Of a stretch of DNA of 26,111 bases, positions 4,485-4,994 are shown piece by piece (positions within the stretch are counted from its first letter, which is position 1; each line of letters opens with the position of its first letter). Origin of the DNA: Bacteroidia bacterium (GTDB lineage: Bacteria > Bacteroidota > Bacteroidia > JANWVE01). The notes beneath the pieces were generated by a model. The model searched no databases. It was not told the origin of the DNA and was given only the letters and a program-made list of their open reading frames with translations. The translations under genes were made by a program, and so were the position numbers. The stretch covers positions 1 through 26,111 of the forward strand of contig JANWVW010000021.1 in assembly GCA_025056095.1 (NCBI GenBank), written 5' to 3'.

Positions 4485-4994
4485 ATGATAGAGCAAATTC
4501 GCAAAAAAAAAGAGCAAACTGCTGAGATAGAACGGCAGGTTCAGCTCATCGTTTTCAAGATTGAGCAACAAGAGTATGCCTTGCCCATTCACGAGGTAAA
4601 AGAAGTGGTAATAACTCCCACAATTACTCCTGTACCTTTTACACCTGACTATGTGTTGGGTGTGGCAAATATTAGGGGAAATATTTTTGCTATTATTGAT
4701 TTAGCAGTGAGTTTTTACAAAAAGGAATTAGACCTTACCAAATATTATGAACAAAAGACTTATACGTTAGTATTAGCCCACGACGAATGGCAGGTAGGTA
4801 TTATAGTTAATGAAGTTCCCAATACACTCAACGTACTGGAAAGCCAAATAGATCTCTCGCCTGCCCTAGTGCAAGACTCACAAACTAAACGTAACTACAT
4901 TAAAGGAATCGTAAAATTAGAGGATAGAATCGTGCTATTATTGCACAACCAAGCTATTATCAACCCCAAAGATTTTGAGATTGCACAAGCCTAA
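4485..4994 (+). CDS. cheW: Stand-alone CheW-like domain protein (chemotaxis-type coupling/scaffold protein)
   Basis: Aligns by eye along its whole length with E. coli CheW. [22 protein letters not shown] matches [48 protein letters not shown] matches [42 protein letters not shown] matches [21 protein letters not shown]. It is 169 aa, the canonical single-domain size. Confidence 0.8.
   Translation: [169 protein letters not shown]

What the first reader, a model, noticed from the sequence alone, without database searches (positions are those of the whole stretch)
4485..4994. Stand-alone CheW-like gene in a T9SS/gliding-type Bacteroidota context with no chemotaxis partners in the window
The protein aligns with CheW along its full length (details in the feature). 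Bacteroidota with T9SS gliding generally lack flagellar chemotaxis. No MCP, CheA or CheY gene is present in this 26-kb window, and the gene has its own promoter box and terminator. It may belong to a Che-like pathway encoded elsewhere or be a repurposed scaffold.
Basis: partly seen in the sequence, partly recalled or inferred. Interest (0 to 1): 0.5.

Follow-up and report, generated by a model that had tools for sequence, protein, structure and literature searches.

The report
Relocated cheW of a scattered Che pathway
The gene is an ordinary, functional CheW coupling protein whose partners (CheA kinase, a CheC-like phosphatase and CheB) lie about 45 genes away on the same chromosome piece, so it is a scattered part of a normal chemosensory pathway and not a partnerless oddity.

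Summary
Window 4485-4994 (+) encodes a 169-aa single-domain CheW: Pfam 100.5 bits, and the predicted fold matches CheW in solved core signalling units. No other che gene lies in the 26-kb window, and three window proteins carry T9SS sorting domains.

The intriguing reading (orphan or repurposed scaffold) does not hold. This CheW belongs to a large Cytophagales-type family that almost always sits in a cluster of PAS-MCP, CheW, CheY, CheB, CheA, a CheC/X-like protein, a GAF-PAS protein and CheR (79 of 80 genome loci have a che neighbour).

In the source genome the cluster is broken up. An intact CheA (MDW8300834.1), a CheC-like gene and CheB lie on the same 106,630-bp contig as this CheW (MDW8300879.1), between nuo genes.

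A sister species (80% identical CheW) keeps the same stand-alone cheW block and also has a CheA (74% identical). Both genes are under strong purifying selection (dN/dS about 0.08). All experimentally defined CheW interface residues are retained.

Verdict: an ordinary but dispersed chemosensory component. Low interest.

The parts
4485..4994 (+). cheW coding sequence (169 aa, single CheW domain; NCBI MCS7027734.1 / MDW8300879.1)
   Evidence: ORF; Pfam PF01584 at 100.5 bits; PDB CheW matches; predicted CheW fold; dN/dS about 0.08 against the sister species; accessions.
4439..4446 (+). candidate Bacteroidota -7 promoter box TAGTTTTG, 39 nt upstream of the start codon (weak evidence)
   Evidence: Match to TAnnTTTG. 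It is not conserved at the aligned position in sister locus L006, and the motif is frequent in this window.
5068..5099 (+). intrinsic terminator after cheW: 9-bp stem, 4-nt loop, then a T-run
   Evidence: Terminator scan. L006 keeps a hairpin plus T-run at the same place with a different stem sequence (GCTCAC...GTGAGC), that is, with compensatory changes.

Best explanation
This is the canonical CheW coupling protein of a Cytophagales-type chemosensory pathway. Its ancestral gene cluster (soluble PAS-MCP, CheW, CheY, CheB, CheA, CheC/X-like phosphatase, GAF-PAS protein, CheR) has been broken up in this lineage. cheW became a single-gene transcription unit with its own terminator. cheA plus the cheC-like gene, and an inverted cheB, ended up between nuoI and nuoJ, about 45 genes away on the same chromosome segment. 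Shown here: the domain, the fold, the retained interface residues, purifying selection, descent from cluster-embedded CheWs, and the presence of intact CheA, CheC-like and CheB genes in the same genome and of CheA in the sister species. Inferred: CheW bridges the P5 domain of that CheA to the signalling tip of receptors to form core signalling units, as in E. coli and Thermotoga. Also inferred: an MCP, a CheY and a CheR are encoded somewhere not yet seen. The output of the pathway in these flagellum-less bacteria is unknown.
For: CheW domain and fold. E. coli CheW residues I33, V36, E38, G57, R62, G63, G99, V105 and G133 correspond to window I35, V38, E40, G59, R64, G65, G105, V111 and G141, and all are retained. 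The roles of those residues come from PMC13098124 and PMC3828127. 79 of 80 related genome loci have che genes adjacent to this CheW family, and 48 of 80 show MCP, CheY, CheB, CheA and CheR together. The window's CheW is nested inside that family, sister to the cluster-embedded L004. CheA P0248 (587 aa; Hpt, dimerisation, HATPase and P5 domains; H, N, G1 and G2 boxes intact) carries accessions MCS7027182.1 / MDW8300834.1 and lies on the same 106,630-bp contig as CheW MDW8300879.1. The CheC-like gene is MDW8300833.1 and CheB is MDW8300832.1. CheB keeps its receiver and methylesterase motifs. The sister species (run SRR27730048) has the same stand-alone cheW block (L006) and a CheA that is 74% identical (L088). 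dN/dS is about 0.08 for both cheW and cheA. L004 is the nearest relative for the source's CheW, CheA and CheB alike.
Against: Genes MDW8300840-860 of the contig and all other contigs were not seen. The window's CheW is at the divergent end of its family: 45 of 59 strongly conserved columns are identical, against a family median of 95%. However, the cluster-embedded members L004 and L047 are just as divergent. The block cc350/cheW/tm160/p118/p128 stays together in two species while its flanks are rearranged, which could hint at a local functional link. No experiment exists on what this pathway controls.
Confidence: 0.85

Rival explanations
1. Repurposed scaffold: CheW has been recruited to a new, non-chemosensory role together with its co-conserved neighbours (a LIC11966-type surface protein, a 160-aa membrane protein and two small proteins).
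For: The five-gene block is conserved between two species although its flanks differ: nuoF abuts the block in L006 but lies 18 kb away in the window. cheW is transcriptionally separate, with a conserved terminator. It is more divergent than the family median.
Against: CheA, a CheC-like protein and CheB are present and intact in the same genome, and CheA is also present in the sister species. Every defined CheA- and receptor-contact residue is kept. The neighbours have no signalling domains, and two of them have their own promoter region. At about 80% protein identity a conserved five-gene block is unremarkable.
Confidence: 0.06
2. Accessory paralogue: the genome has another cheW still next to its MCP, and the window's copy is an extra CheW that serves additional receptors or array structure.
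For: Partial modules coexist with a full cluster in at least one related MAG: L019 (full) and L020 (MCP-CheW-CheY) come from the same assembly. The source's MCP locus was not seen.
Against: No second CheW from a Bacteroidia MAG appeared among the 120 best of 674 CheW hits. The cheA locus has no adjacent cheW. The window's CheW and the source's CheA and CheB share the same nearest relative, L004, as expected for the single original cluster copy.
Confidence: 0.08
3. Decaying remnant or contaminant: a leftover cheW on its way to loss, or DNA from another organism mis-binned into the MAG.
For: It is isolated from other che genes.
Against: pN is 0.135 against pS 0.693 versus the sister species, the same as its neighbours. 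The ORF is intact and full length. It lies on the same contig as cheA in one assembly and is present in two independent MAG assemblies and a Logan contig. GC content is similar: 0.32-0.41 in the window and 0.36 in L087.
Confidence: 0.01

Closest known systems
CheW of the E. coli / Thermotoga maritima core signalling unit (PDB 2ho9, 6s1k, 8c5v, 2ch4, 4jpb)
   Same: Single CheW domain of about 150-170 aa. The predicted fold is the same (target TM-score 0.77-0.84). The E38-R62 salt-bridge pair is conserved, as are the glycines G57, G63, G99 and G133 and the hydrophobic receptor-contact residues I33, V36 and V105 (PMC13098124, PMC3828127).
   Different: Only 26-28% identical. It scores 71 bits against a 260-bit cutoff for the enterobacterial CheW equivalog NF007903. 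E. coli G41 is I43 here, as in the whole Bacteroidota family. The host has no evident flagellar context, and the receptors of this family are soluble PAS-MCPs.
Cytophagales-type che cluster (e.g. Fulvivirga maritima CP089980.1 at about 4.37-4.39 Mb, locus L002; Tunicatimonas pelagia CP120683.1, locus L003)
   Same: The window's CheW is 45-51% identical to, and phylogenetically nested within, the CheWs of this cluster. The source genome also has this cluster's CheA (about 45-53% identical), CheB (about 44-55%) and the CheC/X-like protein directly after CheA.
   Different: Here the cluster is fragmented. cheW is monocistronic and 45 genes from cheA. cheB is inverted relative to cheA. cheA, the cheC-like gene and cheB lie between nuoI and nuoJ. 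MCP, CheY, the GAF-PAS protein and CheR are not adjacent to any of them.
Orphan cheW genes in bacteria with dispersed chemosensory genes
   Same: A cheW located away from cheA that still works with a kinase encoded elsewhere. That such genes exist is general knowledge and was not checked in the literature here. Related partial loci were seen here: L042 (cheW alone), L036 and L018 (MCP-CheW only), and L020.
   Different: In this lineage the separation is fixed in at least two species, and it goes together with a wider break-up of both the che cluster and the nuo operon.

Membership tests
CheW (Pfam PF01584, stand-alone coupling protein) | CheW-like domain scoring above the curated threshold over its full length | tested here: met
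   100.5 bits against a cutoff of 23.5; residues 20-160 match profile positions 1-135 of 138.
CheW (Pfam PF01584, stand-alone coupling protein) | Single-domain architecture (no Hpt or kinase as in CheA, no receiver as in CheV) | tested here: met
   169 aa. No other family reaches its curated cutoff.
CheW (Pfam PF01584, stand-alone coupling protein) | Two-subdomain beta-barrel CheW fold | tested here: met
   AF2 mean pLDDT 81.7. The nine best PDB matches are all CheW chains (E 4.6e-12 to 5.8e-9), followed by CheA P5 domains.
CheW (Pfam PF01584, stand-alone coupling protein) | Conserved functional residues: the E38-R62 salt bridge, the glycines G57, G63, G99 and G133, and receptor contacts I33, V36 and V105 (E. 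coli numbering) | tested here: met
   Window E40, R64, G59, G65, G105, G141, I35, V38 and V111. Residue roles from PMC13098124 and PMC3828127.
CheW (Pfam PF01584, stand-alone coupling protein) | A CheA with a P5 domain encoded in the same genome | tested here: met
   P0248 = MCS7027182.1 / MDW8300834.1, on the same 106,630-bp contig; domains Hpt, H-kinase_dim, HATPase_c and CheW.
CheW (Pfam PF01584, stand-alone coupling protein) | A methyl-accepting chemotaxis protein encoded in the same genome | not tested
The roughly 60 kb of the genome that was inspected (window, L087, L093) contains none. An intact CheB methylesterase implies that methylated receptors exist.
CheW (Pfam PF01584, stand-alone coupling protein) | Physical binding to CheA-P5 and to the receptor tip | not testable with these tools
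   Requires biochemistry.
Enterobacterial CheW equivalog (NCBIfam NF007903) | Score above the equivalog cutoff | tested here: not met
   71.1 bits against a cutoff of 260. The protein is a CheW, but not of the E. coli subfamily.
Cytophagales-type che cluster | CheW sequence nested within the cluster's CheW clade | tested here: met
   Neighbour-joining tree of 86 family CheWs rooted on E. coli CheW: the window and L006 are sister to L004/L005, which have the full cluster. No bootstrap support was computed.
Cytophagales-type che cluster | Gene order PAS-MCP, CheW, CheY, CheB, CheA, CheC-like, (GAF-PAS), CheR | tested here: not met
   No che neighbour within 4.5 kb upstream or 21 kb downstream in the window. 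cheA, the cheC-like gene and an inverted cheB are 45-47 gene numbers away.

The most novel reading that the evidence does not exclude
Separating cheW from the rest of the cluster is adaptive and not neutral. It would let the cell set CheW levels independently, because CheW stoichiometry controls array assembly. Alternatively, it would tie CheW to the co-conserved neighbouring membrane and surface proteins, in a soluble-receptor Che pathway that steers T9SS-dependent gliding or another non-flagellar output.
Probability: 0.08. Interest if true: 0.5.

Novelty: new member of a known kind. Interest (0 to 1): 0.13.

Why it matters
For this finding, little. The gene is a normal CheW, already annotated as such by NCBI, and its kinase is on the same contig. 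Two broader points have modest value. First, a complete che cluster with soluble PAS-MCP receptors is widespread in flagellum-less Cytophagales-type Bacteroidota, and I found no experimental work on its output in the literature searches run here. Second, this lineage shows that the cluster can be scattered across the chromosome, even into the nuo operon, while its parts stay under strong selection. That is a caution against inferring 'orphan' signalling proteins from a 26-kb window.

Tried and rejected
1. The genome-contig scan with the CheW alignment did not recover the source genome.

2. A CheA profile search was swamped: 7,863 hits, and none of the listed top 120 was attributable to the source. 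Only the second bait, the CheA of the sister clade L004, brought up the source's CheA.

3. The identities of the source's CheW and CheA to the related loci are not significantly correlated (Spearman 0.13, p 0.34), so that was not used as evidence.

4. Literature searches for the SRA runs and the locus tag found nothing. Wuichet & Zhulin 2010 is not held.

5. Rfam found nothing in the window.

6. The TonB-receptor look-up failed because the gene runs off the window.

7. The 539-aa PAS protein beyond the window is a PAS-HisKA fragment, not an MCP. The neighbouring 1,215-aa protein has no MCP domain in the 1,107 residues scanned.

8. L042, the only other fully stand-alone cheW locus, is not syntenic with the window, so it is an independent event.

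9. The sigma-70 promoter scan gave no more sites than the shuffled controls.

Full report
**Observation**

The ORF at 4485-4994 (+) encodes 169 aa. It matches the Pfam CheW domain over essentially the whole profile: 100.5 bits against a cutoff of 23.5, residues 20-160. It finds E. coli, Thermotoga and Thermoanaerobacter CheW among solved structures by sequence (E 5.8e-15 for 2ho9). It is predicted, at mean pLDDT 81.7, to adopt a fold whose nine best PDB matches are all CheW chains, followed by CheA P5 domains. It does not reach the enterobacterial CheW equivalog cutoff (71 against 260 bits), so it is a CheW of a different subfamily.

Pfam scans of the window's other 14 long ORFs taken as genes show:
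- a thioredoxin-like protein;
- three T9SS-tail proteins, one of them an alpha-amylase;
- a LIC11966-type surface protein;
- several proteins with no known domain;
- a major-vault-protein-like protein;
- an HTH regulator, a flavin reductase, NuoF and a TonB-dependent receptor.

None is a chemosensory protein. tblastn with all eight proteins of a related che cluster hits only the cheW itself.

A hairpin plus T-run terminator lies 74 nt after the stop codon. The sister species keeps it with a different stem sequence. The promoter box (TAGTTTTG, 4439-4446) is not conserved there, and the motif is common in this AT-rich DNA, so that part is weak.

**Which family this CheW belongs to**

The protein is NCBI MCS7027734.1 / MDW8300879.1 from a 'Bacteroidia bacterium' MAG. 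Its relatives, at 45-55% identity, are CheWs of Cytophagales and allied Bacteroidota such as Fulvivirga, Marivirga, Reichenbachiella, Tunicatimonas, Flammeovirga and Chryseolinea.

In complete genomes and metagenome contigs, these CheWs sit in a conserved cluster:
- a soluble PAS-MCP;
- CheW, CheY, CheB and CheA;
- a roughly 210-aa CheC/CheX-like protein;
- a GAF-PAS protein;
- CheR.

Of 80 species-representative loci, 79 have at least one che gene next to the cheW. In 48 of them MCP, CheY, CheB, CheA and CheR are all within the fetched DNA. Only L042 is fully alone, and it is not syntenic with the window. At least 454 matching stretches exist in the genome collection. The premise that T9SS Bacteroidota lack Che systems was true of the first sequenced Bacteroidetes (PMC1183210), but it is not true of this part of the phylum.

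**Is the gene alive and still a CheW?**

A second species (Logan run SRR27730048, locus L006) has a CheW that is 80% identical, in the same local block: cc350 on the opposite strand, then cheW, tm160, p118 and p128. The flanks are rearranged; nuoF abuts the block in L006 but lies 18 kb away in the window.

Between the two species, cheW has pN 0.135 against pS 0.693, giving dN/dS of about 0.08. Synonymous sites are saturated, so the ratio is approximate. Its neighbours give the same values.

In a neighbour-joining tree of 86 family members rooted on E. coli CheW, the window plus L006 form a clade nested inside the family. That clade is sister to L004/L005, whose CheW lies in a full cluster (no bootstrap was computed).

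The window keeps 45 of the 59 columns that are at least 80% conserved in the family, plus 5 conservative changes. That is low against the family median of 95%, but equal to the cluster-embedded members L004, L005 and L047.

The residues that experiments and cryo-EM models define as CheA or receptor contacts in E. coli CheW are I33, V36, E38, G57, R62, G63, G99, V105 and G133 (PMC13098124). They include the conserved E38-R62 salt bridge (PMC3828127). All are retained, as window I35, V38, E40, G59, R64, G65, G105, V111 and G141.

**Are there partners in the genome?**

A first CheA profile search was swamped, with 7,863 hits. L004 ranks the window lineage among its closest relatives, so I used L004's CheA as bait.

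Hit P0248 is a 587-aa CheA with Hpt, dimerisation, HATPase and P5 domains. It is named 'MAG: ATP-binding protein [Bacteroidia bacterium]', and its longest contig is 106,630 bp, the same value as for the window's CheW. Its accessions are MCS7027182.1 and MDW8300834.1, so it is in both MAG assemblies that contain the CheW.

Exact look-ups place the following all on contig JAVQXK010000001.1 of GCA_033578305.1:

| Gene | Accession suffix (MDW8300xxx) |
|---|---|
| cc350 | 880 |
| CheW | 879 |
| tm160 | 878 |
| MVP-like protein | 875 |
| NuoF | 869 |
| hydrolase | 865 |
| nuoG-like | 839 |
| CheA | 834 |
| CheC-like protein | 833 |
| CheB | 832 |
| NuoJ | 831 |

The Logan contig L087, from the same SRA run as the CheW contig L001, shows this order: nuoI-like (-), cheA (+), a 178-aa CheC/X-like gene (+), cheB (-), nuoJ, nuoK.

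CheA has intact H, N, G1 and G2 boxes. CheB has its receiver and methylesterase motifs, and NCBI annotates it as CheB. The sister species also has a CheA that is 74% identical, from the same run as L006. It evolves at dN/dS of about 0.08.

L004 is the closest relative of the source's CheW (49%), CheA (53%) and CheB (55%) alike. This fits a single ancestral cluster that was later scattered.

**What remains open**

MCP, CheY and CheR were not found in the roughly 60 kb of this genome that I could read: the window, L087 and L093. A PAS protein near the window is a PAS-HisKA fragment, not a receptor. An intact CheB and a CheC-like phosphatase make little sense without methylated receptors, a CheR and a CheY, so I infer that these exist. 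This is inference, not a result.

**Mechanism**

Shown: this is a structurally and evolutionarily standard CheW under selection, in a genome that has the matching CheA, CheB and CheC-like genes.

Inferred: it couples the P5 domain of that CheA to the signalling tip of (probably soluble, PAS-containing) MCPs to build core signalling units. The separate transcription unit is a product of the genome rearrangement that also broke up the nuo operon.

The pathway's output in these flagellum-less bacteria is unknown. Literature searches found no experimental study.

**Rivals**

- A repurposed scaffold working with the co-conserved neighbours is not excluded. It rests only on a five-gene block conserved at 80% identity.
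- A second, receptor-linked cheW paralogue elsewhere is possible, given the precedent of L019 and L020 in one MAG. That would not change the verdict.
- Decay or contamination is excluded by selection, by contig linkage and by presence in two assemblies.

**Verdict**

This is a dispersed but ordinary member of a known pathway, already annotated as CheW. Novelty: new member of a known kind. Interest: low.

Noticed in passing
window 6914-9397 (-): An 827-aa protein with a major vault protein shoulder domain (PF11978, 105 bits) and a vault repeat (PF17795, 36 bits). It is a bacterial MVP-like protein that NCBI annotates only as hypothetical (NZ519_03140).
   Followed up: no
window 5028-5047, 5095-5114 and 5247-5266 (+); conserved stretch 5181-5314: A 20-bp direct repeat, TTGCTCAAAAAnTTnTCATT, occurs as two exact copies 219 nt apart plus one degenerate copy. 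It is found only in the cheW-tm160 intergenic region (0.13 matches expected by chance). The same pair is kept 216 nt apart in sister locus L006. The stretch upstream of tm160 is more than 90% identical between the species although synonymous sites are saturated. It may be an operator or promoter region. There is no Rfam match.
   Followed up: partly
L087 215-13277; window 22655-23995; L006 2-163: The nuo (complex I) operon is broken up in this genome. nuoF stands alone beside a TonB receptor. The nuoG-like and nuoI-like genes are separated by T9SS, peptidase and GlgE genes. cheA, the cheC-like gene and cheB lie between nuoI and nuoJ-nuoK. In the sister species, nuoF abuts the cheW block.
   Followed up: partly
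window 24236-26111 (-) and L091 11582-15371: The TonB-dependent receptor at the window's 3' end is really 811 aa and runs off the window. Directly beyond it lie an HTTM / vitamin-K-carboxylase-like protein (454 aa) and a 1,380-aa NHL/CLIPPER protein with a T9SS tail.
   Followed up: no
window 3236-4288 (-): The gene transcribed divergently from cheW encodes a LIC11966-family surface protein, matched in two stretches of the model (NF047958, 56.6 bits). It is 83% identical in the sister species and under strong purifying selection (dN/dS about 0.06).
   Followed up: partly
L088 3-86 versus L087 7972-8469: The context upstream of cheA differs between the two sister species. In L088 it is the C-terminal end of a gene on the same strand (...DDITVIALKP), which may be SpoIIE/PP2C-like by eye. 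In L087 it is a nuoI-like gene on the opposite strand. This is further evidence of local rearrangement.
   Followed up: no
L019 and L020 (both from MAG CAWJNV01); L036, L018, L032, L044, L042: Several related genomes carry partial che modules (MCP-CheW only, MCP-CheW-CheY, CheW-CheY-CheB, or cheW alone). One MAG has both a full cluster and a partial MCP-CheW-CheY module. Fragmentation or duplication of this cluster therefore recurs in the family.
   Followed up: partly
L093 17622-20945 (-): A 1,215-aa protein beyond the window has no recorded Pfam domain, apart from a sub-threshold NACHT-like P-loop match (17.5 bits). It lies next to a PAS-HisKA fragment.
   Followed up: no
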